Notes under the pieces: model-generated
Database searches by the model: none
Seen by the model: only the letters and a program-made list of their open reading frames with translations
Told to the model about the DNA's origin: nothing
Part shown: piece after piece, positions 4,846 through 37,735 of the stretch
How the letters are laid out: each line of letters opens with the position of its first letter
Numbering within the stretch: the first letter of the stretch is position 1
Translations under genes and position numbers: made by a program
Virus record (IMG/VR): IMGVR_UViG_3300047557_002497
Location: 1,414 to 65,413 of that record
DNA: 64,000 nt
DNA from: a virus
Taxonomy: Duplodnaviria > Caudoviricetes
Reading direction: 5' to 3' (one strand)

Positions 4846-4871
4846 TTGCCGGGTAGGGTGGCACCCGGCAA
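4846..4871. repeat. hairpin TTGCCGGGT-AGGGTGGC-ACCCGGCAA (partial copy of dispersed element)
   Basis: Perfect 9-bp inverted repeat; loop identical to hairpins at 22906 and 36969. Confidence 0.8.
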
Positions 4872-11942: not shown

Positions 11943-11946
11943 ATTA

Positions 11947-15087: not shown

Positions 15088-15209
15088 TACCTGCTCCTAA
15101 ACTAGCATTACTTTAGCTTGTGACGTGTTTGGTGACTATAGCCTTTAGTTCTGGCTATTCTAACGACACGCCTGGACATTGCCAGCGTGCCTATATACAT
15201 GGGGCTTGC

Positions 15210-15231
15210 ACCAACACGTCCAAAACAGTCG
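15210..15231. repeat. inverted copy of 22-bp box (ACCAACACGTCCAAAACAGTCG)
   Basis: Exact reverse complement of 22813-22834 and 36876-36897. Confidence 0.85.
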
Positions 15232-22704: not shown

Positions 22705-23344
22705 ATGGCGATGGATGATCTGAGCTCATCTTGCATTCATCAGTAGCAAATTCCATCATTTTCCTTCTTGGAAGACCACAGCCACATGGACAAGGACCGA
22801 ATGGTATTTCAGCGACTGTTTTGGACGTGTTGGTTGGTTGCCCCTGCCCTATGGTGCCTTGCGCCCCGCTAGGCGCTGCCCCTGCGCTGCCCTGTTTGCC
22901 TGTAGCCGGTAGGGTGGCACCGGGCAAGGGGTTTACCCCATCCAGTGCCCCGCTTACAGTCATGATGAGTGTATTCAAAACTGCCTTCGCTTCATAGACT
23001 TCATTGAGAGAAACAAATCTGCACATAGAATACATGAACTCTCGTTCTAGTCTTCTTTCAGCAGTTCCCAAGCCATTTGAATTTACGAAATTCAAAGTCA
23101 ATTGAAAGTCAAAATTGTTTCTTGATCTGCATTCATTTGGGATAGTTATGTGACTAGTTGCAATGATCTTATCGATGTAGGTCATCGCTTTCTTTAGATC
23201 TTCAATCCCATTCTTTTTCCACCAACGAGAAACATACTTCGTCGCACACCCTGCAAGATATCCCATACCGAGATCAGTTACCCAATCCCAATGCTGATAT
23301 ACAGACTGATAGTGATCTCCGCCTTCTTGCTTCACGTATTCCAT
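22685..23344 (-). CDS. DUF3310/SaV-like protein (putative nucleotide kinase) with low-complexity tail
   Basis: GGDHY...KYVSRW.KKNGIEDLKKA.Y. Confidence 0.75.
   Translation of the reverse strand: MEYVKQEGGDHYQSVYQHWDWVTDLGMGYLAGCATKYVSRWWKKNGIEDLKKAMTYIDKIIATSHITIPNECRSRNNFDFQLTLNFVNSNGLGTAERRLEREFMYSMCRFVSLNEVYEAKAVLNTLIMTVSGALDGVNPLPGATLPATGKQGSAGAAPSGAQGTIGQGQPTNTSKTVAEIPFGPCPCGCGLPRRKMMEFATDECKMSSDHPSPFGYQND
22813..22960. repeat. 148-bp three-box element with TC/GA-free run, copy 1
   Basis: Box 1 22813-22834; hairpin CCGGT-AGGGTGGC-ACCGG 22906-22923; box 3 CCCGCTTACAGT 22949-22960; no TC or GA in 22825-22941. Confidence 0.85.
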
Positions 23345-23904
23345 TATTCACCTTTATCAGAAAGAGTTTCCCAGCCATCGCTTTCAACTTGAAAGAAGAA
23401 GTCAACTATCTTTGGATGATAGTGATGTTTTCTATCTCTTATGTGTTTAGAGACAGCGAGCAATTTTGTTTCCATGGATAGATTTCCAAGCATTTGTTCA
23501 TCTCTGCAGTAGAGATAGAACTCAATCATGTCAAGACCACGAAACCACAAAAGATCTTCTTCACTTAGATCTGATTCAGGATCTTCTCCGAATACAAGAA
23601 CTTGCAGTTCACTCTCAGTTTCTTTGAGATATGTTGCATCAATGAAACCGATATGCTTTGCTGGATGAGGAATATCACCAACAATCCTTTCAGGAACGTC
23701 ATGCTGGAGAACAGCCCAGATGAGTTCTTTCGGAGCATCAGGATATAGAATTCTCAAGAGACAGAGCATATTGAAAGTGTGCCCAGAGACAGGATATTCT
23801 CTAATCCCTCTTTGAGCATGACATCTCAGAACATTGCCACCTTCTCTCGCAAATTTAACTTTCTGAACATTCAAATCTCTTTCAGATCTGAAACCATAAG
23901 TCAT
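23344..23904 (-). CDS. HD-domain phosphohydrolase (YfbR-like 5'-deoxynucleotidase)
   Basis: R.H...VSGH...QHDVPERIVGDIP...D. Confidence 0.8.
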   Translation of the reverse strand: MTYGFRSERDLNVQKVKFAREGGNVLRCHAQRGIREYPVSGHTFNMLCLLRILYPDAPKELIWAVLQHDVPERIVGDIPHPAKHIGFIDATYLKETESELQVLVFGEDPESDLSEEDLLWFRGLDMIEFYLYCRDEQMLGNLSMETKLLAVSKHIRDRKHHYHPKIVDFFFQVESDGWETLSDKGE

Positions 23905-24911
23905 TTCATTCTCCTTTGAAGCCATTCAACACAAGCAAGTCTCCAATCAGTTGCAGCGATCTTTTCAGCAAACACGATTGCCTTCTCAAGATGATACGGA
24001 TCATCTTTATCTTTCCATGCCATCCAAGAACTGTAGACTGGAGATGCAACTTTCTTGAAGAACGGATCTTTAAACCCAATGACAGGACCCTCAGACATGA
24101 ACATCGAGAGATCAGTAAACCACTCTTCTATTGGGCCATTGACGATTGGGAAGGGTTCTACTGCACCTGTCGCATACGGATCCATACCAGTAGAATGCAT
24201 GGAGAGTTCTTGGACTTTCTCCAAAGTATTGAGGTAAGCATGGAAATTCGTGCTGATCTGATAATAGGAGCCTACTTGAACTCCGATCCAAGATGCCATC
24301 ACTTCTTGCAAGAAAGAGAAATGAACAGCATTCGCTCCATACGCTCCCCAGATCATGTCATTGCTTCTGTTGAACACAGTCATGTCAAGATATCCATATG
24401 GATTTATCCTGAAAGTAGCAATGAGATTGCAAGGGAAGTCTTTGCCATCTCTACCAAGATCACAAGAAGCATCCCACATTTGAAGAACAGTTCTTCTATC
24501 ATCAGGATTTTGTTTTAGAAGTTTTGCAATAGTTGCGAGTTGATCAATTACAAAAGATCCGCCTTCATCATATGCTGGAAAAGCATTTCTCCAACGATAT
24601 CCATATGCACCATGGAATGTAACTCCATTATCACTATAATTCGCGATATTAGAAGAAAAACGAGAAATCCATTCAACATCATTTCTTCCAGAGATCATCC
24701 ACAAAGATTCCATAAGATGGAAAAAAGGATTTGCATCTCTTTCAGGAAAGAAGATCACTCTTTCTGTAGGATCTTTATATTTCGTTGTTACTGGATCAGG
24801 GAAAACCCTAACTGGTCCATTTCTTGAATCTCTCAGAACTCCATCAGATTCAAGCTTTCTAAGCCCAATGATAAGAGCATCATTGACGTTGTTAGCTTCT
24901 ATGATGATCAT
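23901..24911 (-). CDS. thymidylate-synthase-family dUMP hydroxymethylase
   Basis: DFPCN catalytic Cys; RSNDMIWGAYGAN with dUMP-type Asn; NFHAY. Confidence 0.8.
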   Translation of the reverse strand: MIIIEANNVNDALIIGLRKLESDGVLRDSRNGPVRVFPDPVTTKYKDPTERVIFFPERDANPFFHLMESLWMISGRNDVEWISRFSSNIANYSDNGVTFHGAYGYRWRNAFPAYDEGGSFVIDQLATIAKLLKQNPDDRRTVLQMWDASCDLGRDGKDFPCNLIATFRINPYGYLDMTVFNRSNDMIWGAYGANAVHFSFLQEVMASWIGVQVGSYYQISTNFHAYLNTLEKVQELSMHSTGMDPYATGAVEPFPIVNGPIEEWFTDLSMFMSEGPVIGFKDPFFKKVASPVYSSWMAWKDKDDPYHLEKAIVFAEKIAATDWRLACVEWLQRRMK

Positions 24912-26191
24912 TTTACTATCCCATAATGGTTGAAGAGAAGTGAATCGCAGTTGTCCATAACTTGATGATCAGGGAATCCATATTCCACGTCATCAAGTTC
25001 TCCATTAACCAGATCAAGCAACCTTTTCGCAACAGTCGCTCTTTCAAAGTTTTTGATGATCAGAGCATTTTCTTCAAGATATGGTCTTGCTTGTTGAATT
25101 GACATATTGCCAGCATCATCAATTATCTTTCCATAAGTGTATGGATCAGTTGCTTCACCTAGATCGATGTAATGAACTCCAGGTTTAAAGAAATCACTTC
25201 CCATTCCTCTTTGCTGAGCAACAGGAATTGCACCATGGATCATCGCATCAACAACAACGCGATTCCAATGTCCACCAATCTTAGAATATTTCTTAGACCA
25301 AGATGGATCTACCAGAACACGAGCTTTTTCGAGCCACGAGTGAACTTCACTGGTAGACCAATATTCATGATGTGTCATTCCATTTGCAAGAGCAGCTTCC
25401 CAGAACGTCATGCCTGAGAACCAATGGTCATTCACTCCATGATAATACTGAGGCTTGCATTTGTCTTCTGAAGTCATATACTGATATTCAATTCCCTTAC
25501 CAGCTACTTCACGAAGAGAATTTCCATCATAGTCTTTCATATATGCGATTGATTCAATCAACTCGTGAGCATGTTTCCATGCTTTGAAAGTTTGCATATT
25601 CACAAACCCTGGAAGTTTTTGGTCCCAGTCAGTTGTTGGAAAATATATCTCTTGTGGATTGAGGATCAAAGCTCTTGGTGGAGTTAAATGATCTGATCCA
25701 TTCAAAGCACAAGAATGGACACATGCTATTGCAGAAAGCTTCTCTTCAATATGTAAAAGATGAGGCGCACCATCACGAGAATTTCCATCATGTATGAATG
25801 CGAGTTGCTTGACGTGTGGCTTCAAATTATAAAGAAGAGGCCACTTGTTATTTCCTAAATGGAGTTTGTTTTTAGGAGGAACTGGAACAGTCCAAATAAC
25901 AAGATCATAAGAATTCAAAACTTCAATTGTCGTTCTTAGACCAAGAGATGTTTTATAAGGAAGACGGTTTTGAAGAGGAAAACTCCATCCGCATCCTTGT
26001 CCAAATCTTATTCCACTTGGGCCAATTTCGTTTGCATTCTGCTTATCGAGAGCATGAACTCTTTCAGAGTAGCACATTTCGTAGAAATGAACAGTGTGTC
26101 CTAAGTCTTTCAAACCACCAATCAATTGTTCAGTATGATTGATGATTCCTCCAAGATCCATGCAGGAATGGAGAGCGATACAAATTTTCAT
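24908..26191 (-). CDS. GT-B fold (GT4-like) glycosyltransferase
   Basis: N-terminal GGIINHTEQLIGGLKDLGHTV; C-terminal ARVLVDPS...RVVVDAMIHGAIPVA. Confidence 0.75.
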   Translation of the reverse strand: MKICIALHSCMDLGGIINHTEQLIGGLKDLGHTVHFYEMCYSERVHALDKQNANEIGPSGIRFGQGCGWSFPLQNRLPYKTSLGLRTTIEVLNSYDLVIWTVPVPPKNKLHLGNNKWPLLYNLKPHVKQLAFIHDGNSRDGAPHLLHIEEKLSAIACVHSCALNGSDHLTPPRALILNPQEIYFPTTDWDQKLPGFVNMQTFKAWKHAHELIESIAYMKDYDGNSLREVAGKGIEYQYMTSEDKCKPQYYHGVNDHWFSGMTFWEAALANGMTHHEYWSTSEVHSWLEKARVLVDPSWSKKYSKIGGHWNRVVVDAMIHGAIPVAQQRGMGSDFFKPGVHYIDLGEATDPYTYGKIIDDAGNMSIQQARPYLEENALIIKNFERATVAKRLLDLVNGELDDVEYGFPDHQVMDNCDSLLFNHYGIVK

Positions 26192-26214
26192 GATGTCTTC
26201 CCCCGTTATGATTT

Positions 26215-26243
26215 AGCATAAACCAGCTAGGGGCAAAAGACAA
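26215..26243 (-). promoter_or_regulatory. promoter TTGTCT-N17-TATGCT
   Basis: Shares TTGTCTTTTGCC with the 18376-18404 promoter. Confidence 0.55.
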
Positions 26244-26248
26244 TTTTG

Positions 26249-26449
26249 TTATTTCTTTTTCTTTACAAAAAGCCTATAGATAGTAACAAATGGAAGAGCA
26301 ATTGGAAATGTAAACATTCCTATAATGATTGTTTTTCTATCATATTGTTTTGCTTTTTCTGGATCATTCTTAATGACAAATTCATAAGCATAGACAAGAA
26401 TCATGTCTACGATAAGAAAATACAGGCAGAAATAGAACCACCAACTCAT
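26249..26449 (-). CDS. small membrane protein
   Basis: Two hydrophobic segments. Confidence 0.6.
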   Translation of the reverse strand: MSWWFYFCLYFLIVDMILVYAYEFVIKNDPEKAKQYDRKTIIIGMFTFPIALPFVTIYRLFVKKKK

Positions 26450-27363
26450 TTTGGGAAATATCTAGAACGAGGTTTTCCTTGTCCTAAACGAACACGCTCA
26501 TACTTATCAAACTCACACAAACTGAATTGAATATCAGTTGGTGAGAGATAAGGAAATCCATCAGGAAGATAGTTGCTTTGTTCTTCAAACAATGTCATAA
26601 GAATTGACATCGCTTTACTGTTTGACATCTTCTTGGAGATATCAGCTAGTTCATCAAGAATTCGTGCAGCACCTCGTAGAGCTCCCGGTCCGATAGGCGT
26701 CCAGTCCCACCAGTCTTTTGGGAATGTAAATCTTCCATCAGGAGTTTCATCAGTAACTGCCCAAAAGGGACAATAAGTCGTGTCAAGAAGAATCTCCTTG
26801 GTCATGAATCCAGTTCCACCGAATCCATTGATCTTCATCATCTCTTCAGCTGTCAGTCTCCAGGATTGAGTTTTTGAAGCAATATCAACCAGACGACCAG
26901 CTTTTTCATGCAGAGCTCTAAGGAAGTAGTCTACTACAACCTCTTCTTTGGGCTCTGAGATTCCTTGGTTGGTAATCACGTATGCTCCAGTGAACACACG
27001 TAGATTTTCAGCAAATCTTTCTTTAGCTACAGATTTCACAAGTTCAAAATCATAAGCATCAAAAGTCTGCCAACCAACAGCTTCTGCGAATTCCCATGTT
27101 CCAAAATATCTGAAGGTTGCACAATTCATGAGAATTGTTTTCTTATCATCAGATTGAATCTTGCTGTAAAAAGATTCACGAAGTTTTGAAGACGTCTTGT
27201 CATGATGACGCCTAACATTGGTGAATTTATACATTGAGAGAATAGGATCAAAAGTCCACTTATTCTCGTCAAACCCAATGGAAGTATCCGCCTCCTTCCG
27301 AAGGCGGATATTCTCGCGCTCAATGATATAGTTAAAGAACGCGCTTGCTCTGGAAAGAAACAT
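26446..27363 (-). CDS. aGPT-Pplase1-type / 5-hmdU DNA kinase helical-domain protein
   Basis: ERENIR...WTFDPIL..YKFTNVRR..D, FTGAY, GPGALRG, LCEFDKY.R. Confidence 0.8.
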   Translation of the reverse strand: MFLSRASAFFNYIIERENIRLRKEADTSIGFDENKWTFDPILSMYKFTNVRRHHDKTSSKLRESFYSKIQSDDKKTILMNCATFRYFGTWEFAEAVGWQTFDAYDFELVKSVAKERFAENLRVFTGAYVITNQGISEPKEEVVVDYFLRALHEKAGRLVDIASKTQSWRLTAEEMMKINGFGGTGFMTKEILLDTTYCPFWAVTDETPDGRFTFPKDWWDWTPIGPGALRGAARILDELADISKKMSNSKAMSILMTLFEEQSNYLPDGFPYLSPTDIQFSLCEFDKYERVRLGQGKPRSRYFPK

Positions 27364-28103
27364 TACGAAGCCGTGGCTTCATCAGCAGGTTTCGCAACAG
27401 CGGCATCGGCTTCTGCTTTCTTCGCAGCAGCAGCATCAGCTTTTGCTTTCTCAGCAGCAGCTTTCTTTTCAGCAGCCTCAGCCTTGCGCTTTTCAGCAGC
27501 TTCCTTGTTGGCAGCTTTCTTCGCAGCAGCTTCTTCAGCTTTGGTGATTTTCGCCAGATCAGGGTCAGGAACGCCTTTCTTGGTGAAGTAGGCAGCACGA
27601 CGTTCTTTGTATTCCTCGTCGGTCGGCTGATGGACTTTCATCAGACCTTTTTCTTCCCAATTGTAGATGTCCCAAGCCAGCGTGCCTTCGCCCTCGATTG
27701 CATCGATGATTAACATGCCATCTTTGTAATTCGGCCAGCGATGAGCACGATCTTCTTTGCCAGTGTGCTGAGCAATGATCTCAACTTTGGCAAACATCTT
27801 GCGAGTCGGGCGTTTCACGAACTGAGATTCAGCAGGCTTTGCCAGACCACGAACTTTCGGCTCTTTCGGCTCTTTGGTTTTCTTGACTTCAGCTTGAGGA
27901 GCCGGGTCTTTCGCGCTTTCTTCGGCATACTTGGTCAGTGCCTTGAGGGTCTGAGCAACAGCCGTGTCATGGTTCGGGAAAGAGCGAATTGCGCTTGCAC
28001 CAAGATTTGATGCCACAAGATTGCGAAGTTCGAGAAGCTGATCAATCCCGAGCGCCTTGAGATCTGCTTCGTCATATTCCTGTTCAAGGAACTTGATCTT
28101 CAT
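27363..28103 (-). CDS. hypothetical protein with Ala/Lys/Glu-rich tail
   Basis: Own promoter and GGAGA RBS; AEEAAAKKAANKEAAEK tail. Confidence 0.75.
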   Translation of the reverse strand: MKIKFLEQEYDEADLKALGIDQLLELRNLVASNLGASAIRSFPNHDTAVAQTLKALTKYAEESAKDPAPQAEVKKTKEPKEPKVRGLAKPAESQFVKRPTRKMFAKVEIIAQHTGKEDRAHRWPNYKDGMLIIDAIEGEGTLAWDIYNWEEKGLMKVHQPTDEEYKERRAAYFTKKGVPDPDLAKITKAEEAAAKKAANKEAAEKRKAEAAEKKAAAEKAKADAAAAKKAEADAAVAKPADEATAS

Positions 28104-28155
28104 GGTGTTTCTCCGTTTCTACTGTTGATATGGCGTTCTTGCCACCAATATTCAG

Positions 28156-28184
28156 ACTTTAACCCGTCTGAACAAAGATGGCAA
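28156..28184 (-). promoter_or_regulatory. promoter TTGCCA-N17-TAAAGT
   Basis: Intergenic, upstream of 27363..28103. Confidence 0.55.
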
Positions 28185-28207
28185 GCACTTTTTATCAATT
28201 CGTGACA

Positions 28208-30088: not shown

Positions 30089-30090
30089 TG

Positions 30091-31329
30091 TTACATCCTT
30101 ATGATGGTCACGTTTTCAGCGGCACGAGTAATCGCAGTGTATAACCAGCGATGTCTCTGCTCCTTAAAAACGAAAGACTCATCGAAGACACATACACTAT
30201 CCCACTGAGAACCTTGGGATTTGTGAACTGTCAGCGCATATCCATAATCAAATTCTTGGGCGTTTGTTCTAAGCCAGTATTGTTTCTCTAGGTCTTTTGA
30301 TCTACCTAGGAAGTGTTGTTCAAGAGCAGCAACCTCAATGCTGAAAATGCTGTCATCTGGATGAACGGAAAGATGAACTTTTCCATCCATTACTCCACGA
30401 ACATCACTTACATTGAAGATTGCGCCATTTAGCAAGCCTAACTCAGCATTGTTCTTTAGACAAACCAAACGGTCACCGATCACAGGATAAGCATCATCGA
30501 TACCTTTGATTCTACGAATTTTTGTGTTCGCAGAATATCTTGTGTCGTTCTTACCAACTAGGATTTGATCAAAGGATAAAATCCTTTCCTCATCCAGTTT
30601 TGTTCCTTTTGGGAGAACATGACAGTTTTCACCATAGTCTCCTAGCTTAAGATAATTTCCATTTCTGACTTCTGTAGCCATTCTCAGAATTGGTGACTCA
30701 GCAGCCTGACGATGAACTTCGTCAAGCATGAAATCTGGAGCAACGTTCTCTGTGAAGAAGCCAGTGCTCGCTACAGGTGGAAGTTGAGCAGGATCACCCA
30801 ATACAAGGACAGGAGTTCCAAAGTAGAGAAGATCAGCACCCATCTCATGTCCAACCATAGAGCATTCATCAATTATGATTAGAGCACTATCTTTGACGAT
30901 GCTATCTTCATTCCTGGTGAACGTTGGTTGAGAAACATTCTTCGTCTCTAGATTGATTGCTTTCCTGAGCTCATCAACCTTTGGGTGTTTGTCGATGAAT
31001 CCTTGTCCATATTCTGCTAATTCTTTTAACAGATTAAGCAGATCGTTTTCAAGTTGCTTCAATCTAGAAGTGCTTTTGTCTCTGGTATGATAAATCAATG
31101 AGTGAATCGTAGCAGCACCATCACATCCTTTTTTACGAAGAACATGAGCAGCTTTTCCTGTGTATGCTGCGAACAGAACGTCACCATCAATTCCCTCAGC
31201 TAAATGTTTAGCGAGAGTTGTTTTTCCAGTTCCAGCGAACCCAAATAAACGGAAGACCTGATTTGAGCTCGATTCATACCAATGCTTTACAGCGAGCAAA
31301 GCCTCGTCTTGTTGTTGTGAAAATTGCAT
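30091..31329 (-). CDS. Dda/RecD-like SF1B helicase
   Basis: GFAGTGKT, DECSM, GDPAQLPPV, YALTVHKSQGS, YTAITRA. Confidence 0.9.
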   Translation of the reverse strand: MQFSQQQDEALLAVKHWYESSSNQVFRLFGFAGTGKTTLAKHLAEGIDGDVLFAAYTGKAAHVLRKKGCDGAATIHSLIYHTRDKSTSRLKQLENDLLNLLKELAEYGQGFIDKHPKVDELRKAINLETKNVSQPTFTRNEDSIVKDSALIIIDECSMVGHEMGADLLYFGTPVLVLGDPAQLPPVASTGFFTENVAPDFMLDEVHRQAAESPILRMATEVRNGNYLKLGDYGENCHVLPKGTKLDEERILSFDQILVGKNDTRYSANTKIRRIKGIDDAYPVIGDRLVCLKNNAELGLLNGAIFNVSDVRGVMDGKVHLSVHPDDSIFSIEVAALEQHFLGRSKDLEKQYWLRTNAQEFDYGYALTVHKSQGSQWDSVCVFDESFVFKEQRHRWLYTAITRAAENVTIIRM

Positions 31330-31349
31330 GTCATCTCCGAAGACAGTTA

Positions 31350-31371
31350 GGGCGGGACATTACTCCCGCCC
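31350..31371 (-). terminator. GC hairpin GGGCGGGA-(N6)-TCCCGCCC
   Basis: Intergenic inverted repeat after 31380..32240; weak U tract. Confidence 0.4.
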
Positions 31372-31379
31372 GGTTGAAA

Positions 31380-32240
31380 TCAGAACGGGATTTCGTCTTC
31401 GTTCTTCGTCGGAGCAGGACCACTGGTTGAACGACGTGCTTGTTCAACTTCAGTCTCTTCACCAGTGTAGTCAGGTTTCGCAAGACCACCTTTGATCATG
31501 TCTCTGAATTTCAGAGCCTCGCTCAGCAGCATCTCACCTTCTGGTGTTGCAGGATTGATCAGAGATTCGCGCCAAGAATCTTTCAGTGGAGCAACTCTGT
31601 AGTTGTAAGAAGTTCCACTCTCTCTCTTTTCCATTGCAGTCGAGATCTTTGCTCTGTTTGCATAGATCGGTGGAGCACCTTTCAATCCATACATCGCACT
31701 GATGAAGTCTTTGTAGACTTTGATCTTCGTAGAAGTGAAGCTCAGAACACAGAAGCCTTCAATCGATTCACCAGCTTGGTCAAGAATGAGACAGTAGATG
31801 TAGAAAGTCTCGACCAGTTCATTTCCAGCAGGAGATTTGAAACTGATGCGCTTGTTTTCTGCATCTTTCGGAGGAATTCTTGAGCCACCATTGGCCTTGA
31901 TCACGTCAAGGAAAATGTCAGATTCAAGACTGTGACGTCCAGCGATACCACCGCCCTTGCTTCTGGGAATCCATTCCACAACAGCTTCTTCACGATGCAC
32001 CGGAATAATGACAACCGGCTGTGAAAGAATTTCACGTGTCACAGAATTCAGGAGATCACCAGCGCGACAACCTTCGATTTGATTTTCGACGATCTCAGGA
32101 GATGTCGGTTGGAGAACGTTGATGAAAGGAATTGAGAGGTCATTGATACCAATGCCTTCAAATCCCTCATGAGCATGATCCCCATAGTCATAGGCTTGGA
32201 TCTGGGCGGTCTCTTTTTTCGCAACTTCTGTGCCAGCCAT
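31380..32240 (-). CDS. putative ssDNA-binding/annealing protein
   Basis: DLSIPFINVLQ..SP N-terminus; acidic NEDEIPF tail; replication context. Confidence 0.6.
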   Translation of the reverse strand: MAGTEVAKKETAQIQAYDYGDHAHEGFEGIGINDLSIPFINVLQPTSPEIVENQIEGCRAGDLLNSVTREILSQPVVIIPVHREEAVVEWIPRSKGGGIAGRHSLESDIFLDVIKANGGSRIPPKDAENKRISFKSPAGNELVETFYIYCLILDQAGESIEGFCVLSFTSTKIKVYKDFISAMYGLKGAPPIYANRAKISTAMEKRESGTSYNYRVAPLKDSWRESLINPATPEGEMLLSEALKFRDMIKGGLAKPDYTGEETEVEQARRSTSGPAPTKNEDEIPF

Positions 32241-32310
32241 GATGGCTCCTTTCGGCTATCGTTGATTGGAATGCTTCCAAGCTCACCACTATCCTAGGTG
32301 ACAGGATGGA

Positions 32311-32868
32311 TCATTTCTTTTCCTTGATCTTTGCGATACGCTGAGGATACACGCCAAAGAGATCACGAGGAATGTCGTCGCCTTCTTTGATACGCTCTTT
32401 CACCCAGGAAAGCATTGTCATGTGATGAACATCAAGGTCTTGTTTGATGACGACAGGATTTTCGAAGTTGATCTGTTGAATTTTCTCAACAAGAGTATCA
32501 GAACCTTCTTTGTCACCACGAGAGAATTCAACAACAACTGCTCTCTTGACAATAGAAGAATATCCGTGTTCATCGAGCCATTTGATTGCTGGAGCTTTTC
32601 TTTCTCCACCAATGCTTGCACGAATTTCTTCTTTGACGGTGATTTCTCTTCCATCACCAATATCGAAGGTTCCGTCCATACCTTCTGTCAGTTTTGGGAT
32701 CCTAATCTCAACGAGGTCTCTTCGGAGATTACTCAATCTTTCAAGTTCTGTGTTTGTATTTTCAATATCAGCATCGATTTTGATTAGCTCATCTGCCATC
32801 TTTTGCAGTGAACGCTTGAATTCTGAGTCTGGCTCTTCTCTGAACTGTGCATATGGATCTGACATCAT
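32311..32868 (-). CDS. phage replication-module protein
   Basis: AIKWLDEHG...VHHMTMLSWVKE; GGAG RBS. Confidence 0.65.
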   Translation of the reverse strand: MMSDPYAQFREEPDSEFKRSLQKMADELIKIDADIENTNTELERLSNLRRDLVEIRIPKLTEGMDGTFDIGDGREITVKEEIRASIGGERKAPAIKWLDEHGYSSIVKRAVVVEFSRGDKEGSDTLVEKIQQINFENPVVIKQDLDVHHMTMLSWVKERIKEGDDIPRDLFGVYPQRIAKIKEKK

Positions 32869-32918
32869 TTGCTCCTGCTAGACACAATAAATACCATATG
32901 TTGTGTTCAAAGACAAAT

Positions 32919-33266
32919 CTAATATATCTTCGTCACAACTTCTATGTATCTATCATTTCTGCCGCTCCACTGTAATAGCTTCACTGAACCATTATTATAG
33001 TGAGCAGCGATAGCTGTCGCCATACCAATGAGAGCAGGATTTCCTATAAGAAGAAGATGATCATCATCGGAGAAGTCTTTCAGCTTCTCATGCATGTCAC
33101 CTAATACCAAAGGAGGATCAAATGGATGCGCAGAAGGTGAGAGAAGATAGACCATCTTCCCCCAACTCTCAGCCTTATCTATAGATGAAAATCGTGGAAC
33201 AAGCTCTTTGGTCGCTTGATCATATTTCATCTGTTGCTGAATGACAAAGACTGTCATTATATCCAA
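32919..33266 (-). CDS. hypothetical protein
   Basis: DDHLLLIGNP...LLQW; coupled to the helicase. Confidence 0.65.
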   Translation of the reverse strand: MDIMTVFVIQQQMKYDQATKELVPRFSSIDKAESWGKMVYLLSPSAHPFDPPLVLGDMHEKLKDFSDDDHLLLIGNPALIGMATAIAAHYNNGSVKLLQWSGRNDRYIEVVTKIY

Positions 33267-34732
33267 TCTCCTTGATCGTCTTCAAGAATCTCATTTGAAA
33301 CGTTTCTCTTCGTTCTGAGATTGTTGACGATGTGCTTATCAATTGCACAATCACCAAGAATATCGATATAGTTCACAGATTCATCATCCATACCACCACG
33401 ATGGTTTCTGTCTTCTGATTGGACTCTGTCAATATATCTAAACGAGTTAGAATAATAGACAGTTGTTTTCGCCACGGTCAGAGTTAGACCTGACCCTCCC
33501 TTTTGGGCATTTCCGACGAACCATTTCTTATCGCCGTGCTGGAATGCCAGCTTGTTCCTTTCAGCTTCATCAGGGGTTAAAGTTCCATCATACCGAACAG
33601 CATCTTTTCCAAGAAGATCCATCAACTGATCAATATCATGCTTGAATCTAGCCCAAACAATGCCAGGACGGTAGACCTCGTCGCGAATTTCCTCCATCAC
33701 TCCAAGACGAGGATTCTTGTCTGAGAACATATGGACTGGTTCATCAATACCGACTGGGACATAGTTGCAAGCGATTTGTTGATATCGCAGCATTGCCACA
33801 ATTGGAAGATCAGCACTGATGATATGATCACCAATTTCAAGGATCAAGTTTTCCTTGAGTTCTTCCATCGCAGCTTTTTGCACAGACGACAGTTCAAAGT
33901 ATCGTTTGGAGTATATCTTGGACGGAAGATCAAGAACATCTTTCTTCAGACGTCTATCAGAAATTTCCTTGAGCCATTTCTGGAGTTTTTCAATATTCTG
34001 ATATCCGAGAAGCTTGTCATATCCAGGATCGTAGCCTTTCAAACGTTTAACGTCTGCAGCGAGTTCCCATTGACCGAAGAAGTTTCTGAAGTCGACTGAT
34101 CCACCATGGATACCGTGATTCTTCCAGAACCACTCATCCAGAAAATTGATCTGACTGTAGAGATCGAATGGCCCAATGGAGATAGGAGTTCCAGTCAGGA
34201 TTCTGCGATACTTCGCATACTTGCCAGCAGCGATAACTCTCTTTGTTCTCTTGGCATTTGGACTTTTGATATTGTGTGCTTCGTCAAGAACAAACATACA
34301 TTCGCGATTTTGGAGAAAGCGCCAGACCAGCTTCTTTCCTTCTTCTGACATGATTGCATCATAGCTCATCAAAAGGATTGAGAGACCATCATGCCTGAAC
34401 AGACTTTCCATCTGTCTCTTATGTTCTTGAGTATGCTTTTTGTGATTGTTGAAAACCTGAACTCTGATATCAAGAGAAAGGTCTATTGGCATGTGAGTTG
34501 GAATTTCGTCACTACGCCAGTTTCTTTCCACACCAGAAGGTGCGACAACTAGAAGACCATTGATCTTCTTTTGTGAGTATAAAATTGAGGCATTGTCAAT
34601 GATTGGTTTTGTCTTGCAGGTGCCTTGTTCCCATAGAAGACCCCATGCTTTGTCGTCATAGTGGTTGTTCAAAAACTCAACCTGATGTTCGAAAGGTTTG
34701 AGTTGGTGAGGATAGTTTTCCGGTGTGAACAT
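33257..34732 (-). CDS. SNF2-family (SF2) helicase
   Basis: EQGTCKT, DEAH, LTGTP, GGSGLTL, QSEDRNHR. Confidence 0.9.
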   Translation of the reverse strand: MFTPENYPHQLKPFEHQVEFLNNHYDDKAWGLLWEQGTCKTKPIIDNASILYSQKKINGLLVVAPSGVERNWRSDEIPTHMPIDLSLDIRVQVFNNHKKHTQEHKRQMESLFRHDGLSILLMSYDAIMSEEGKKLVWRFLQNRECMFVLDEAHNIKSPNAKRTKRVIAAGKYAKYRRILTGTPISIGPFDLYSQINFLDEWFWKNHGIHGGSVDFRNFFGQWELAADVKRLKGYDPGYDKLLGYQNIEKLQKWLKEISDRRLKKDVLDLPSKIYSKRYFELSSVQKAAMEELKENLILEIGDHIISADLPIVAMLRYQQIACNYVPVGIDEPVHMFSDKNPRLGVMEEIRDEVYRPGIVWARFKHDIDQLMDLLGKDAVRYDGTLTPDEAERNKLAFQHGDKKWFVGNAQKGGSGLTLTVAKTTVYYSNSFRYIDRVQSEDRNHRGGMDDESVNYIDILGDCAIDKHIVNNLRTKRNVSNEILEDDQGDWI

Positions 34733-34762
34733 ATTTTCTCCTTTTCTACATTCTTATAGCCC

Positions 34763-34790
34763 ATTATAAGCACTTTGGCAATACTGGCAA
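34763..34790 (-). promoter_or_regulatory. promoter TTGCCA-N16-TATAAT with -35 box inside an iteron
   Basis: -10 at 34763-34768; -35 at 34785-34790. Confidence 0.55.
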
Positions 34791-35040
34791 TACTTAGACT
34801 AACAATCTTGATCTATGTATTGTCAGAGATATTACCTCTTTTTACCTTTATTTACAACAGCTTAAAGAGCTTTGACAATACTGGCAATACTGACAATACT
34901 AAAAACGCTGCTGCAACAAAACTTCCAAATGCTGGCAACCCTTGGGCATGTATTGCCAGTATTGCCAGTGATGTCAGTGATACTTTTCATGAACAAAAAC
35001 AATAGGTTAAGATTTGCTCACTGACATCACTTGACATCAC
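34776..35040. repeat. iteron-like 9-bp repeat array B, homologous to array A
   Basis: TGRCAATAC triplet 34873-34899; inverted triplet 34950-34976; further copies at 34776, 34785, 34817, 35022, 35032. Confidence 0.8.
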
Positions 35041-35549
35041 TAACCTTCCATCAACTCAAAGTGTGGTCCATCGATGAAGTCAGGACCAGGATGAGTTTCT
35101 TTGTATCTGTCAACAGCCTTTATGATGTCTTTCAAAGAATTGCCATAGTCATTCAGGCATTCATACCAGTTCCCACCCCATTTGATTTTCACGTTGTGAA
35201 TCTTGGCGGCTTGAGCGACAGCATGACCGATCTTGTAGTAATGATTCCAATCATCGAAATCCCACTCTCCGTTGACCCAAGCAGTGAAGTCAACAGAGTG
35301 ACCTGTTCCGTCTGAAGTTACTTGATGATTGGATTTGTTCTTGTATCCATCTTTATCAGTGACCCGTTTCCCAGGTTTGGTTCTGCCTTGCTGATAAAGC
35401 TGATTTTGTTCGAATGCTGTTCTGACAGCTTTCTTTTGGACACCGAAGTCTACTTCGGAAAGACTGATCGCTGTATTTGCAACTGTGATCAGTTTGGGAT
35501 TAAGCCCGGCCATATTTGCGATCGAGGCTTTTCCAAATTTAAAGATCAT
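35040..35549 (-). CDS. endolysin, M15-family (L-Ala-D-Glu) peptidase
   Basis: R...Q..LY.QGR, SNH, SVD, WGG.W, DGPHFEL. Confidence 0.9.
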   Translation of the reverse strand: MIFKFGKASIANMAGLNPKLITVANTAISLSEVDFGVQKKAVRTAFEQNQLYQQGRTKPGKRVTDKDGYKNKSNHQVTSDGTGHSVDFTAWVNGEWDFDDWNHYYKIGHAVAQAAKIHNVKIKWGGNWYECLNDYGNSLKDIIKAVDRYKETHPGPDFIDGPHFELMEG

Positions 35550-35934
35550 CTTTGTTCCCCCAAAGTTTGTGTGGATAGAATACAGCAGTCAGGATATTGT
35601 ATTTTCCAGGAGACTGCTTATTGACCAGAAGCCAATATCCTTTGAGCTTGAACCAGCAGCCGATGCAGATGAGAGCATTGAAAACCCAATTGATCATCCC
35701 ACGACTAACACCGATATCAGACCAAGTGAAATCGAACATCTCTGGAGTAATGTCCCAGAAAAGCAACCTGAGAATCTGGAATGATGCAAGCATCCAAATT
35801 CCAATTCCAAGGTAGTCCATTGCCTCTTTTCTGTCTCTGTGAAAGTATCTCCTGAACCCAAAGGCAACAAGGAAGAGCATGAATATTGCCATGACTCCAG
35901 TTATCATAGTCAACACTTGAAAAAAGTTATTCAT
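35539..35934 (-). CDS. three-TM membrane protein (lysis module)
   Basis: Three hydrophobic helices next to the endolysin. Confidence 0.65.
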   Translation of the reverse strand: MNNFFQVLTMITGVMAIFMLFLVAFGFRRYFHRDRKEAMDYLGIGIWMLASFQILRLLFWDITPEMFDFTWSDIGVSRGMINWVFNALICIGCWFKLKGYWLLVNKQSPGKYNILTAVFYPHKLWGNKDDL

Positions 35935-36094
35935 GTTTTATCTGATCCCTGATTACTTCTGAAAGAGCTCGTGACAGTTGTTCGTGTATCTGTTCTCTTC
36001 TCTTTTTGAGATTCTCAAGATAAGCAGATGTCTCCTCTACCTTTTGATTGTCAGGCTTAGTCTTCAATGAAATATTCATTCCGAATATCATCAT
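35927..36094 (-). CDS. hypothetical protein (55 aa), not in ORF track
   Basis: Translated by hand (MMIFGMNISLKTKPD...); fills the gap. Confidence 0.5.
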   Translation of the reverse strand: MMIFGMNISLKTKPDNQKVEETSAYLENLKKRREQIHEQLSRALSEVIRDQIKHE

Positions 36095-36322
36095 TTACCT
36101 AGCTCCCATTGCTTTGACAATTATTGTCAGCTCTGTGAGGACGCTTGTCGTCTGTTTCTCACGCTCAAAAGAATTGTGCATTTGCTCGAAGAGCTTGCCA
36201 GTCAGATCATCGATCTTTTTGTCTTTTTGCTGATTCTGCCATATTGAGTAGATATTCCAGACACCAAGAACTCCATAACCAGTTAGAACAGTGACGATCG
36301 AATCAAATATGTTACCTTCCAT
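36095..36322 (-). CDS. putative holin
   Basis: N-terminal TM plus coiled coil within the lysis cassette. Confidence 0.55.
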   Translation of the reverse strand: MEGNIFDSIVTVLTGYGVLGVWNIYSIWQNQQKDKKIDDLTGKLFEQMHNSFEREKQTTSVLTELTIIVKAMGAR

Positions 36323-36578
36323 TTCCCATTACTCCTCCATCCCTTATCTTATAAAACTCAACAAGAGATTCATGACGTTCTCCACACGCCAGTAGATTAG
36401 AACGATCAGAAATCCAAAGCTTCTCCACTTCAGATTGGCTCAATTCTCTATTAGGAAGAATAACTGGTCTTGAACATTTCACAACCAAAGATGCCGGTGG
36501 ATCTACTAATACAGGAGGTTCAATCGATCCTATTGATTCTGCGCACGCTGTCAACAGAAATAGCTGGCCTAGAAGCAT
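36312..36578 (-). CDS. o-spanin (Rz1-like lipoprotein)
   Basis: LFLLTAC lipobox, Pro-rich; overlaps the i-spanin 3' end. Confidence 0.7.
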   Translation of the reverse strand: MLLGQLFLLTACAESIGSIEPPVLVDPPASLVVKCSRPVILPNRELSQSEVEKLWISDRSNLLACGERHESLVEFYKIRDGGVMGNGR

Positions 36579-36861
36579 TAGGGTCCAAGTCGATTTCTGA
36601 CATGAGATTTTTGATTTCTTCATTTCTTTGCGCAAGAATCTCAGCGAGTTCTGCTTCCCTTTCATGAGCTAATCTTAGAGCCTCATTATTAGCTCTAGTT
36701 ATGCGATCTTTTTCAACTTGCATGGCACGCTCATATTTTTGAGTTGTCACTTCAACGCCATCGTTGAATGCATCGTGCCTGATGTAAAGACCGGCTCCCA
36801 CGAGCAGGGCAATGCCCAAGAAATAAGGCATAAACCTGTTAAAGACAATACTTGAAAGCAT
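36520..36861 (-). CDS. i-spanin (Rz-like)
   Basis: N-terminal TM plus coiled coil. Confidence 0.7.
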   Translation of the reverse strand: MLSSIVFNRFMPYFLGIALLVGAGLYIRHDAFNDGVEVTTQKYERAMQVEKDRITRANNEALRLAHEREAELAEILAQRNEEIKNLMSEIDLDPNASRPAISVDSVRRINRID

Positions 36862-36875
36862 GGATTAGTTTCCTA

Positions 36876-37022
36876 CGACTGTTTTGGACGTGTTGGTAGC
36901 GGGGCCTTGGGTGTTGGTGCAGGTAGCGCGGCCACAGGCGCGGCTAGCGTGGCAGGTTTGGCACCTGCCCGGTAGGGTGGCACCGGCCAGCAGCAAAAGC
37001 CAGCCAGCGGCCCGCTTATAGT
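36876..37022. repeat. 147-bp three-box element with TC/GA-free run, copy 2
   Basis: Box 1 36876-36897; hairpin 36969-36986; box 3 CCCGCTTATAGT 37011-37022; no TC or GA in 36888-37025. Confidence 0.85.
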
Positions 37023-37024
37023 GC

Positions 37025-37735
37025 TCAGACTGGCGTGAAACTTGCATCAGAATTCCTAAGACCAGTTCCTTTTACAACGAGCAGATTATCGATCAGTCCA
37101 CGCCAACGTTCATCCGAAAAACTGTATCCAGGTTGACCAATATTCACATCAACAGTGTTGTTGCCAACAACCACAGATCCAAATGAAGAATTTTTGCCAA
37201 CCATGACTCCATCTTTGAACATACGAAGATTTGATCCATTACGTGAAACTGCAAAATGGAATGTAGTTGTTCCGACTGCTCCACCTGATCCAGCTAGCGA
37301 TGATCCTGTATTCCAAGAGAATTCTAGATTTCCACCATTGGGAAGAATACCAAGTCCCCAACCATTATCAGGATTGTATGTCAAGTTACCAATCAAGAAA
37401 CGAACATATGTTCCAGGCGAAGAACTGAAATTTGACTTCGCCCATCCTTCAATAGAAAAGTCACCAGTTCCAAAATTCCAATCACTAGATGCGCCACAAG
37501 CAAGAAAACCTGTAGTTTCATTCGCTGGATTAATCGCAAGTGAAGAAGTTCCTTTCAACGCTCCAGTAGTTTCTAGAGCACAGACTCCATTAGCTGTGAG
37601 TGTTCTTCCTATTGGGCTTAGATCAAGAATAGTTGTTGATCCATCTGCTCCTTCTGCATCAATATAAAGAACTGTTCCAGAAGGTAATGAAGGACCTGCT
37701 GGAGCTAAGATTGCAGAGTTTACGACCATACTCAT
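37025..37735 (-). CDS. LamG/concanavalin-A-like lectin tail protein
   Basis: FGTGDFSIEGW...HFAVSRNG..LRMFKDG...GLIDNL. Confidence 0.8.
   Translation of the reverse strand: MSMVVNSAILAPAGPSLPSGTVLYIDAEGADGSTTILDLSPIGRTLTANGVCALETTGALKGTSSLAINPANETTGFLACGASSDWNFGTGDFSIEGWAKSNFSSSPGTYVRFLIGNLTYNPDNGWGLGILPNGGNLEFSWNTGSSLAGSGGAVGTTTFHFAVSRNGSNLRMFKDGVMVGKNSSFGSVVVGNNTVDVNIGQPGYSFSDERWRGLIDNLLVVKGTGLRNSDASFTPV

What the first reader, a model, noticed from the sequence alone, without database searches (positions are those of the whole stretch)
22813..37025. Two ~148-bp three-box elements with fixed spacing and long TC/GA-free runs
Seen: copies at 22813-22960 and 36876-37022 share an identical 22-bp box (CGACTGTTTTGGACGTGTTGGT). 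An 18-bp hairpin CCGGT-AGGGTGGC-ACCGG starts exactly 93 bp after the box start in both, and CCCGCTTAYAGT follows 42-43 bp later. The spacers differ in sequence, but there is no TC or GA dinucleotide for 117 nt (22825-22941) and 138 nt (36888-37025). Sample lines elsewhere show one every ~5-7 nt. TC and GA are the same site on opposite strands. Inference: the T of 5'-TC-3' is the hypermodified position, and these are windows kept unmodified so a protein (polymerase, nickase, packaging, ejection or replication factor) can engage them.
Basis: partly seen in the sequence, partly recalled or inferred. Interest (0 to 1): 0.88.

Follow-up and report, generated by a model that had tools for sequence, protein, structure and literature searches.

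The report
Phage DNA islands purged of TC/GA
An uncultured freshwater phage that chemically decorates its thymines keeps a few short, GC-rich DNA stretches, each starting at a conserved sequence box, free of the two-letter step TC/GA, probably so that these stretches stay undecorated.

Summary
Both ~148-bp elements exist as described. Their TC/GA-free runs (117 and 138 nt) far exceed chance: the longest gap in 200 dinucleotide shuffles was 61, and 0 of 200,000 local shuffles reached zero.

They are not isolated oddities. E1 is translated as the linker of a DUF3310 protein next to PolA. E2 lies between a tail gene and the spanin gene. A third exact box follows the primase gene, upstream of a conserved promoter-like site.

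All five fully fetched relatives, and five partial contigs with the DUF3310-PolA junction, also carry TC/GA-free islands. These include a whole Asp/Glu-free gene and an E1/E2-like pair in another genome. YuA, CN1 and Simon have none.

Synonymous resampling (P about 1e-7) puts the constraint on the nucleic acid, and both strands are affected.

Indirect support for TC as the modified context: of 6-bp palindromes containing TC/GA, 0 of 94 are under-represented across six genomes. Of those lacking it, 93 of 230 are. The signal is weak in this genome alone. In YuA the exempt class is TG/CA.

What the boxes do is unproven; I favour protein-binding sites. The scan had already noted TC/GA-free islands on other phage DNA.

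The parts
22813..22960 (+). E1: box 1 (22813-22834), 71-nt spacer, hairpin (22906-22923), box 3 (22949-22960). It lies antisense inside the DUF3310 gene.
22825..22941 (.). 117-nt TC/GA-free run of E1, about 65% G+C
   Evidence: Given the peptide and genome codon usage, P(zero TC/GA) = 1.0e-7.
22685..23344 (-). 219-aa DUF3310 / phrog_5839 protein. PHROGs label related families 'nucleotide kinase'. Its linker is encoded by E1, and the invariant PFGY tail follows.
   Evidence: alignment of 7 orthologues
36876..37022 (+). E2: box 1 (36876-36897), 71-nt spacer, hairpin (36969-36986), box 3 (37011-37022). It lies between the stop of the LamG-like tail gene (37025) and the start of the Rz-like spanin gene (36861).
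36888..37025 (.). 138-nt TC/GA-free run of E2
36865..37047 (-). 60-aa ORF spanning E2, ending ...ATNTSKTVVGN. Coding status is open. ORFs are expected by chance because the island cannot contain TGA.
   Evidence: no Pfam hit. G007 has a similar ORF over its E2-like element (read by eye).
15210..15231 (-). E3: third exact copy of box 1, directly after the primase stop codon. It is in the sense orientation of the genes.
15176..15219 (.). 44-nt TC/GA-free run starting inside the E3 box and closed by GTCCAGG
   Evidence: The gap 15088-15231 has TC/GA observed/expected 0.50.
15110..15138 (-). TAGTCA-N17-TAAAGT. It aligns with the TGGTCA-N17-TATAAT promoter-like site conserved after the primase gene in relatives.
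   Evidence: consensus match only
4850..4867 (+). E4: hairpin variant CGGGT-AGGGTGGC-ACCCG with the same loop and one compensatory stem change. It lies in the gap upstream of the 159-aa gene 4240-4719.
23344..27363 (-). Predicted thymidine-modification genes: HD nucleotidase (23344-23925), TS-like hydroxymethylase (23901-24911), GT-B glycosyltransferase-like protein (24908-26191) and HMUDK-helical-domain protein (26446-27363).

Best explanation
E1 and E2 are two copies of a 'box-plus-island' DNA module found throughout a subclade of M6/YuA-related siphophages. Each module starts with a conserved word with a GGACG core, here the 22-bp box. A GC-rich tract follows in which selection forbids the step TC/GA on both strands.

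Most likely mechanism (inferred). The phage replaces T by 5-hydroxymethyl-U and then decorates it further, probably with a sugar, only where it is followed by C. A TC/GA-free tract therefore stays free of the bulky mark on both strands.

I read the boxes as recognition sites for a sequence-specific DNA-binding protein. A regulator of transcription or replication is the likeliest candidate, because the third copy sits at the head of a conserved regulatory region upstream of a promoter-like site after the primase gene.

The modules sit where the compact genome tolerates them. E2 and E3 are intergenic. E1 is written into the flexible linker of the DUF3310 protein, whose codons were chosen to obey the ban.

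Shown: the ban, its selection at nucleic-acid level, its conservation, and E1 being coding.
Inferred: the TC-specific mark, the unmodified state of the islands, and protein binding.
For: (1) The ban is real and local.

(2) It acts on the nucleic acid, not the protein. Keeping each peptide and resampling synonymous codons by genome usage gives about 9-11 TC/GA in the short islands (32.6 in the whole gene). P(zero) is 1.0e-7 for E1, 6.4e-7 and 3.2e-7 for two G001 islands, 1.9e-6 for L004, and 6.5e-21 for a whole 160-aa gene in G001. Both strands are free, which points to duplex DNA.

(3) It is conserved.
- All five fully fetched relatives (G001, G006-G009) have islands of up to 693 nt. Five partial contigs with the DUF3310-PolA junction (L004, L020-L023) have them too.
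- The DUF3310 linker has a run of at least 75 nt in 8 of 11 genomes or contigs. L023 has 58+65 nt, G009 49 nt and G006 37 nt.
- A small gene near the terminase genes has 0-1 Asp+Glu in 5 relatives.

(4) E1 is translated. phrog_5839 ends where E1 begins. The reading frame runs from the N-domain across the island to an invariant PFGY in 7 of 7 orthologues.

(5) Genome G007 has its own E1-like and E2-like pair with 116- and 115-nt runs. Copies within a genome are 69% and 71% identical, against 57-61% between genomes. This indicates concerted evolution, as expected for sites read by one genome-specific factor.

(6) Island edges are enriched for GGAC: 9 of 58 edges against 1.08 expected.

(7) TC context. 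0 of 94 TC/GA-containing 6-bp palindromes have O/E below 0.5 in six genomes, against 93 of 230 without TC/GA. Fisher p ranges from 8e-5 to 0.028. The effect survives stratification by G+C in 5 of 6 genomes. As a positive control, YuA exempts CA/TG (p 2.8e-5), matching the TG preference reported for the M6 kinase (PMC6449724, passages).

(8) Modification genes are present. The HMUDK-helical protein is only 24-28% identical to YuA gp14, while PolA and TS are about 50% identical. This fits a changed specificity.

(9) The inverted GGAC words after the primase gene are conserved as sequence without covariation. RNAalifold gives -1.28. That favours duplex-DNA recognition over an RNA fold.
Against: - No chemical or sequencing evidence for any modification is available. 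Only assembled contigs exist for this phage.
- In this genome alone the palindrome test is weak.
- YuA, CN1 and Simon modify or are predicted to modify thymidine, yet have no island free of any dinucleotide. Modification-free windows are therefore not a general need of such phages.
- The promoter-like -35 word after the primase gene (TGGTCA or TAGTCA) itself contains TC, so TC is not incompatible with every protein-binding site.
- No P-loop kinase partner (YuA gp13) was found at E<=1e-4, so the pathway is not the characterised one.
- The box occurs in both orientations relative to the genes and no binding protein is identified.
- The G+C richness of the islands is not explained by TC/GA avoidance.
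- Only 2 of 25 gaps of at least 90 nt are TC/GA-depleted, so most regulatory DNA does without the ban.
Confidence: 0.45

Rival explanations
1. The boxes or the hairpin are strand-specific nick sites or primase start sites, like the localized nicks of T5, phiKMV-like and tf phages. The island would be a tract on which nicking or priming must not occur elsewhere.
For: - All 3 hairpin copies lie on the + strand.
- The - strand of the hairpin (CGGTGCCACCCTACCGG) loosely resembles the phiKMV nick consensus CGACxxxxxCCTA/CTCCGG quoted in PMC3517423 (passages).
- This phage and G001 encode an ATP-dependent ligase, which the YuA table lacks.
- One box abuts the primase gene, whose N-terminus has a weak RepB-primase hit, E 0.009.
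Against: - The box lies on both strands (2 on +, 1 on -), unlike known nick consensus sites.
- The resemblance to the phiKMV consensus is partial and was recognised by eye.
- The hairpin is absent from the relatives searched.
- No raw reads exist to map ends.
- A priming word such as GTC would not explain the loss of ATC, CTC and TTC.
Confidence: 0.12
2. The elements are selfish miniature repeats, like Rickettsia palindromic elements (recalled, not read). They spread into intergenic DNA and in frame into tolerant protein linkers, and the boxes are their ends.
For: - There are identical boxes at several loci and an in-frame copy in a gene.
- Islands are present in some orthologous genes and absent in others. 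The tape-measure island occurs only in G001 and G008, and the adaptor island only in G000.
- A short vocabulary of words recurs in both orientations.
- GC-rich TC/GA-free DNA is nearly stop-free in six frames.
Against: - There are only two full copies per genome.
- The DUF3310, post-primase and tail-lysis positions are orthologous across genomes.
- No target-site duplication or transposase was seen.
- A selfish repeat does not explain why diverged copies, a whole gene and non-repetitive iteron arrays all keep zero TC/GA.
Confidence: 0.1
3. The ban is read on RNA. Transcripts of these stretches would escape an RNA-targeting enzyme that acts at GA (and UC). An earlier scan note names a GA-specific mRNA ADP-ribosyltransferase, CmdT, citing PMC11618068, which I did not read.
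For: E1 and the Asp/Glu-free gene are transcribed and translated regions.
Against: - Both GA and TC are absent on both strands.
- E3 carries the box in the opposite orientation to E1 and E2 relative to transcription.
- Non-coding iteron arrays are also depleted.
- Most of the proteome-coding RNA is rich in GA.
Confidence: 0.06
4. The conserved boxes are module-boundary linker sequences. They would promote homologous exchange of gene modules between co-infecting relatives, and lack of modification would ease recombination.
For: E2 and its G007 counterpart keep the box and the following CTAAT(C/G)C word while the adjacent tail genes are unrelated or only 23% identical (flanks compared by eye).
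Against: - E1 lies inside a gene between syntenic, conserved neighbours.
- Copies within a genome are more alike than positional orthologues, the opposite of what frequent exchange between genomes predicts.
Confidence: 0.07
5. The runs are a by-product of low-complexity Ala/Gly/Pro/Thr/Gln-rich coding sequence or of local G+C richness.
For: E1 and several relatives' islands encode such linkers.
Against: - Local composition predicts 13-15 TC/GA.
- Synonymous resampling of the same peptides predicts about 9-11, with P(zero) 1e-6 to 1e-7.
- E2 and E3 are intergenic.
Confidence: 0.02

Closest known systems
Context-dependent thymidine hypermodification from 5-hmdU in phages M6, ViI and PhiW-14 (PMC5889632, search listing only; PMC8989533 and PMC6449724, passages)
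   Same: A TS-like dUMP hydroxymethylase, an HD nucleotidase and a PF18723 (HMUDK helical) protein sit next to PolA. Only part of the thymines is modified there, in a dinucleotide context. TG or TC was proposed from resistant restriction sites.
   Different: - The context inferred here is TC alone. TG/CA is enriched inside the islands and TG/CA palindromes are not exempt.
- YuA's gp10-gp13 enzymes have no homologues here, and a GT-B glycosyltransferase-like gene stands in the cluster.
- Local motif-free islands are not mentioned in the passages I read, and YuA and CN1 have none.
Restriction-site (palindrome) avoidance in phage genomes
   Same: Selection acts on short words in DNA. It is seen here as total loss of GTAC (0 against 75 expected) and of many 6-bp palindromes.
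   Different: That avoidance is genome-wide and directed at host enzymes. The islands are local (100-700 nt) and avoid a word that is over-used elsewhere in the genome (coding O/E 1.36).
Localized single-strand interruptions of T5, phiKMV-like and tf phages (PMC3517423, passages)
   Same: Short conserved words are repeated a few times in a phage genome. The hairpin copies share one strand.
   Different: There is no evidence of nicks here. The box lies on both strands. The known nick sites are not embedded in dinucleotide-free tracts.
Rickettsia palindromic elements: repeats inserted in frame into genes (recalled, not read)
   Same: A repeat of about 150 bp is translated as part of a protein and also occurs between genes.
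   Different: There are two copies rather than dozens, at orthologous positions across genomes. The dinucleotide ban extends to non-repeat DNA.
Base J (glucosyl-hydroxymethyluracil) of kinetoplastids, placed at particular genome regions (recalled, not read)
   Same: The predicted chemistry (hmU plus glycosyltransferase) may be similar. In both, where the mark lies or is absent has meaning.
   Different: In kinetoplastids the mark is placed regionally by hydroxylases. Here the absence of the mark would be written into the sequence itself.

Membership tests
5-hmdU-derived thymidine hypermodification system (M6/ViI type) | dUMP hydroxymethylase (thymidylate-synthase fold) with enzymes that deplete dTTP and dUTP | tested here: met
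   PF00303 E 3.6e-23 and phrog_5131 E 1.5e-127 for 23901-24911. HD domain for 23344-23925. dCTP deaminase/dUTPase-like for 18406-18897.
5-hmdU-derived thymidine hypermodification system (M6/ViI type) | 5-hmdU DNA kinase | tested here: inconclusive
   PF18723 (helical domain) E 1.6e-30 for 26446-27363. No homologue of the YuA gp13 'putative kinase' at E<=1e-4, and only 24% identity to YuA gp14.
5-hmdU-derived thymidine hypermodification system (M6/ViI type) | Amino-acid or polyamine transferase with PLP and radical-SAM tailoring enzymes | tested here: not met
   No tblastn hit for YuA gp10, gp11 or gp12 in G000, G001 or G007. Instead there is a GT-B glycosyltransferase-like protein, with Atlas feature score 0.99 and TM 0.65-0.83.
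5-hmdU-derived thymidine hypermodification system (M6/ViI type) | Modified base chemically present, in a defined sequence context | not testable with these tools
   Only indirect evidence: TC/GA palindromes are exempt from avoidance in 6 of 6 genomes, weakly in this one.
Localized nick sites (T5 / phiKMV / tf type) | All copies of the consensus word lie on one strand | tested here: inconclusive
   Hairpin: 3 of 3 on +. Box: 2 on +, 1 on -.
Localized nick sites (T5 / phiKMV / tf type) | Physical single-strand break in virion DNA | not testable with these tools
   Only contigs were available, no raw reads.
In-frame selfish repeats (RPE-like) or MITEs | Many dispersed copies, terminal inverted repeats, target-site duplication, filled and empty sites | tested here: not met
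   Two full and two partial copies. Flanks share no duplication. The DUF3310 site carries a box-like word, seen by eye, in all 11 genomes or contigs that include it, with runs from 37 to 122 nt.
Sigma-70 or sigma-54 promoter, intrinsic terminator | Consensus hexamers with correct spacing, or a GC hairpin followed by a T run | tested here: not met
   No promoter-like or terminator-like site inside E1 or E2. TGGCAC in the hairpin lacks a GC at the required N10 spacing in E1 and E2 (read by eye).
Described structured RNA (Rfam) | Match at the gathering score | tested here: not met
   Only two tRNAs matched in the window. Folding z-scores are -2.1/-2.2 for E1 and +1.3/+0.1 for E2.

The most novel reading that the evidence does not exclude
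The islands are blank backgrounds that turn single modifiable thymines into epigenetic landmarks. The only TC steps near an island sit in GGAC/GTCC words at its edges and in the box, where two lie 10 bp apart on one face of the helix. A phage regulator would read whether those thymines carry the bulky mark. It could then tell parental, fully modified DNA from newly made DNA, and so time the expression of replication and lysis genes.
Probability: 0.12. Interest if true: 0.9.

Novelty: new variant of a known kind. Interest (0 to 1): 0.72.

Why it matters
If the reading is right, a phage genome encodes in its own sequence where its DNA hypermodification must not go. It does so even by recoding proteins: a linker, and a whole gene without Asp or Glu.

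That would have three consequences:
- The sequence context of an uncharacterised thymidine modification (TC) could be predicted from sequence alone. The palindrome-exemption test used here recovered TG for YuA/M6.
- It would point to the few sites where unmodified or singly modified DNA is functionally required.
- It would give defined short DNA elements (the GGACG-core box and its island) for finding the proteins that read hypermodified or unmodified phage DNA. What such modifications do beyond blocking restriction is an open question.

Tried and rejected
Searches that found nothing.
- Exact searches for the box and the hairpin in viral contigs found nothing.
- megablast of 6 kb against the phage collection found nothing.
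- Rfam at gathering score gave only two tRNAs.
- Consensus scans gave no promoter or terminator at E1 or E2.
- By eye, the TGGCAC words fit the GG-N10-GC spacing of sigma-54 promoters only in E4, so I dropped that idea.

Structure.
- Whole-element folding gave no convincing structure for E2.
- RNAalifold on 12 post-primase regions gave -1.28 with one short stem. For the alignment I used 11 of the 17 primase loci, plus G000 and G001. L057, L060, L063 and L069 were dropped as near-duplicates of L056, L059, L062 and L055. L066 and L068 were dropped because their contigs end before the primase stop. G001 did not align and was dropped.

Islands free of other dinucleotides. YuA (50 of 58.7 kb), CN1 (50 of 59.8 kb), Simon (whole) and L005-L009 have none in the context-relevant classes (TC/GA, CA/TG). 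Runs above 1.6 times the expected maximum occurred only for AA/TT (Simon, L005) and GC (L005, L006). Simon has ten 80-nt windows with at most 2 TC/GA, but its longest run (66) is below the chance expectation of 68.

Sequencing runs. No RNA holder was listed. The three DNA holders are contigs and may be the source sample. They show no variant, joint or end at E1 or E2.

The Asp/Glu-free small protein. It has no Pfam or PDB sequence match. The AlphaFold2 model has mean pLDDT 59.4. Foldseek against the PDB gave no match at E<=0.001.

Other points.
- The GA-free 179-nt run on the + strand at 27368-27546 is only the Ala/Lys/Glu-rich tail of the 246-aa protein.
- A T7-like primase word (GTC) as the cause of the ban is rejected, because ATC, CTC and TTC are also absent.
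- A Chi-like reading of GNTGGTGG in some relatives' boxes is rejected, because the three G000 boxes do not keep it.

Prior print. Full-text searches gave no paper describing dinucleotide-free islands in modified phage genomes. Supplements were closed, and those of PMC6449724 and PMC8989533 may hold context data that I could not see.

Full report
THE OBSERVATION

The window is nearly all of a 65,413-bp phage record (window = bases 1414-65413, 127-bp terminal repeat). It has about 43% G+C, and nearly all genes lie on the - strand.

Both elements are as described:
- An identical 22-bp box lies at 22813 and 36876.
- The 18-bp hairpin lies 93 bp after the box start in each.
- CCCGCTTAYAGT follows 43 and 42 bp after the hairpin start.

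TC/GA is the second most common strand-symmetric dinucleotide class, after AA/TT (10,486 in 64,000 nt). It is nonetheless absent for 117 nt (22825-22941) and 138 nt (36888-37025), and the next longest gap is 52 nt.
- In 200 dinucleotide-preserving shuffles of the window the longest gap averaged 44.5, with a maximum of 61.
- Shuffling each run by itself predicts 13.0 and 15.0 occurrences, and 0 of 200,000 shuffles reached zero.
- No other dinucleotide class is comparably depleted there. CA/TG is enriched: 18 against 12.9 and 22 against 15.2.

A third exact box lies at 15210-15231 on the - strand. A hairpin with the same loop and one compensatory stem change lies at 4850-4867.

The two 71-nt box-to-hairpin spacers are weakly alike: 31 of 71 positions are identical, p about 0.02. 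The whole elements are 69% identical. The equal spacing may therefore be inherited.

WHERE THE ELEMENTS SIT

E1 lies inside ORF 22685-23344 (-).
- Residues 5-128 match phrog_5839 over nearly its whole 128-position profile, and residues 27-58 match DUF3310. The domain ends exactly where E1 begins.
- The frame continues through E1 to a C-terminal PFGY. This motif is invariant in 7 of 7 orthologues from this and six related genomes or contigs.
- E1 is therefore translated as a Gly/Ala/Pro/Thr/Gln-rich linker.

E2 fills the gap between the stop of a LamG-like tail gene (37025) and the start of an Rz-like spanin gene (36861). A 60-aa ORF spans it, but a tract that cannot contain TGA is open by chance, and the ORF has no family match.

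E3 begins directly after the primase stop codon, in the orientation opposite to E1 and E2 relative to transcription.

THE PHAGE AND ITS MODIFICATION GENES

PolA is 47-53% identical to those of phage Simon, Bordetella phages CN1 and FP1, and Pseudomonas phage YuA and its kin.

Next to PolA lie a TS-like hydroxymethylase, an HD nucleotidase, a protein matching the helical domain of the 5-hmdU DNA kinase (PF18723, E 1.6e-30), and a 427-aa protein. The ESM Atlas places the 427-aa protein among GT-B glycosyltransferases.

YuA's PLP, radical-SAM and 'putative kinase' genes have no homologue here. The PF18723 protein is only 24-28% identical to YuA gp14, whereas PolA and TS are about 50% identical. 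The chemistry is thus probably hmU plus a sugar, not M6's aminoethyl-uracil. This is an inference.

THE ISLANDS ARE A FAMILY TRAIT

I fetched five related IMG/VR records in full: G001, G006, G007, G008 and G009 (52-68 kb). Their primases are 60-71% identical to ours, and the PolA of the four genomes where it was measured is 70-74% identical. All five have TC/GA-free runs far above the roughly 48-59 nt expected:
- 677, 170 and 122 nt in G001.
- 202, 117 and 116 nt in G007.
- 648 nt in G008.
- 693 nt in G009.
- Five runs of 115-158 nt in G006.

By synteny:
- The long island is a small gene near the terminase genes. Its protein has 0 or 1 Asp+Glu in the five relatives. Our genome has the homologue at bases 287-706, outside the window. 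There it is depleted but not free, with runs of 90, 67, 62 and 60 nt.
- The DUF3310 linker carries a run of at least 75 nt in 8 of 11 genomes or contigs that include it: G000, G001, G007, G008, L004 and L020-L022. L023 has 58+65 nt, G009 49 nt and G006 37 nt.
- Tape-measure genes of G001 and G008 carry in-frame islands of 170 and 74 nt. Ours does not.

More distant relatives have none: YuA, CN1, Simon, L005-L009 and L030.

THE CONSTRAINT IS ON NUCLEIC ACID

I kept each island's peptide and redrew synonymous codons by the genome's own usage. This predicts about 9-11 TC/GA in the short islands. The exact probability of zero is:
- 1.0e-7 for E1.
- 6.4e-7 and 3.2e-7 for two G001 islands.
- 1.9e-6 for L004.
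- 6.5e-21 for the G001 gene, where 32.6 TC/GA are expected.

In E1, glycine is GGC before A-starting codons and often GGG before G- or C-starting codons (read). Both strands are free, and the box orientation differs between copies. A reader of duplex DNA is therefore the simplest cause.

IS TC THE MODIFIED CONTEXT?

Passages of PMC6449724 propose TG or TC as the modified context in M6, ViI and PhiW-14. They report (citing unpublished work) that the M6 kinase modifies TG.

I tested which dinucleotide exempts 6-bp palindromes from avoidance.
- In YuA, palindromes are strongly avoided (median log2 O/E -3.38) unless they contain CA/TG (-0.27; p 2.8e-5).
- In G001 the exempt class is TC/GA: +0.08 against -0.85, p 4e-6.
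- Palindromes with O/E below 0.5, among those containing TC/GA: 0/16, 0/16, 0/14, 0/16, 0/16 and 0/16 in G000, G001, G007, G008, G009 and G006.
- Among those lacking TC/GA, in the same order: 10/37, 14/33, 21/36, 18/46, 21/41 and 9/37.
- Fisher p, in the same order: 0.018, 0.0012, 8e-5, 0.0015, 1e-4 and 0.028.
- The effect survives stratification by the GC dinucleotide or by G+C count in five genomes. In G000 it holds only in the 4-G+C stratum: p 0.027, otherwise 0.82 and 0.17.

GTAC is absent from G000, G001 and G009, with 75 and 87 expected in the first two.

This is indirect support for a protective mark at TC/GA. It does not say which base carries the mark.

THE BOXES

A word of the form GAC-N6-GGACG-N-G-N-TGG recurs in the relatives at three kinds of place:
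- After the primase stop.
- In the DUF3310 linker, antisense to the gene or as an inverted pair flanking a 24-45-nt TC/GA-free stretch.
- At further sites.

The linker box of L023 and the post-primase box of L055 agree at 21 of 24 positions (by eye).

G007 has an E1-like copy in its linker and an E2-like copy between a tail gene and the next gene. Their runs are 116 and 115 nt, and they share 18-nt blocks. By its flanks the G007 E2-like copy is the positional counterpart of our E2 (by eye). Copies within a genome (69% and 71%) are more alike than copies between genomes (57-61%). That indicates concerted evolution.

The post-primase region of 11 relatives is a conserved regulatory stretch. It holds repeated GGAC/GGAT words, a TC/GA-free core, and TGGTCA-N17-TATAAT; ours has TAGTCA-N17-TAAAGT. 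The inverted words are conserved as sequence without a supported fold.

Across the 29 islands of at least 60 nt, GGAC marks 9 of 58 edges, against 1.08 expected.

Among 25 gaps of at least 90 nt in our genome, only the E3 gap (O/E 0.50) and the iteron gap 34733-35039 (0.77) are depleted. E2 is missed by that gap list because the 60-aa ORF counts as a gene there.

READING

I conclude that E1 and E2 are box-plus-island modules kept free of TC/GA by selection on the DNA. The most likely purpose is to keep them free of a TC-specific thymidine modification. I read the boxes as protein-recognition sites.

Three results count against generality:
- YuA-type phages have no islands.
- The promoter-like -35 word contains TC.
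- Most intergenic DNA is not depleted.

The rivals are nick or priming sites, selfish in-frame repeats, an RNA-level reader and recombination linkers. They are weighed in their own sections. None explains the two-strand ban across coding, non-coding and non-repeat DNA as simply.

EARLIER NOTES AND PRIOR PRINT

The scan had already reported TC/GA-free islands in other phage genomes, with the same general reading. I reached the reading before that look-up and tested it independently here.

Four full-text searches found no paper describing such islands.

Noticed in passing
whole window; also G001 and G009: GTAC is completely absent: 0 observed against 75 expected in G000 and 0 against 87 in G001. 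G009 also has 0 and G006 has 1, while G007 and G008 have 120 and 158. This suggests that some hosts carry a GTAC-specific restriction system which the phage's modification does not block.
   Followed up: partly
G000 bases 287-706 (- strand), outside the window; homologues in G001, G006-G009: A small conserved protein of about 120-160 aa has essentially no Asp or Glu, and its gene is free or nearly free of TC/GA. It lies near the terminase genes and beside iteron-like repeats. It has no Pfam, PDB or Foldseek match, and the AlphaFold2 model has pLDDT 59.
   Followed up: partly
window 1263-1480 and 34753-35040: Two arrays of GACAATACT / GGCAATACT-type iterons with inverted copies. The second lies directly upstream of the SNF2 helicase gene and is TC/GA-poor. 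G001 has a TC/GA-poor stretch at the syntenic place (14178-14294).
   Followed up: partly
L018 (YuA, 1-50000): In YuA almost all 6-bp palindromes are strongly avoided (median log2 O/E about -3.4) unless they contain CA/TG. This may be a sequence-only read-out of the modification context.
   Followed up: partly
window 51217-51353: Two TC/GA-free runs (45 and 52 nt) lie in a GC-rich insert of the 295-aa DnaT_2-like adaptor gene 50831-51718. The G001 homologue shows no such run.
   Followed up: no
window 15110-15138, and relatives L054-L070 about 150 nt after the primase stop: A conserved sigma-70-like site follows the primase gene: TGGTCA-N17-TATAAT in relatives, TAGTCA-N17-TAAAGT here. It is preceded by repeated CTGGAC / CCGGAC / TTGGAT words.
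   Followed up: partly
window 13910-14830: An ATP-dependent DNA ligase gene is present here and in G001. None is annotated in the YuA stretch shown.
   Followed up: no
window 27368-27546: A 179-nt stretch has no GA on the + strand only. It encodes the Ala/Lys/Glu-rich tail of the 246-aa protein next to the HMUDK-helical gene, so it is a composition effect.
   Followed up: yes
window 11867-12022: Two adjacent tRNA genes on the - strand: Met-CAT and Arg-TCT.
   Followed up: no
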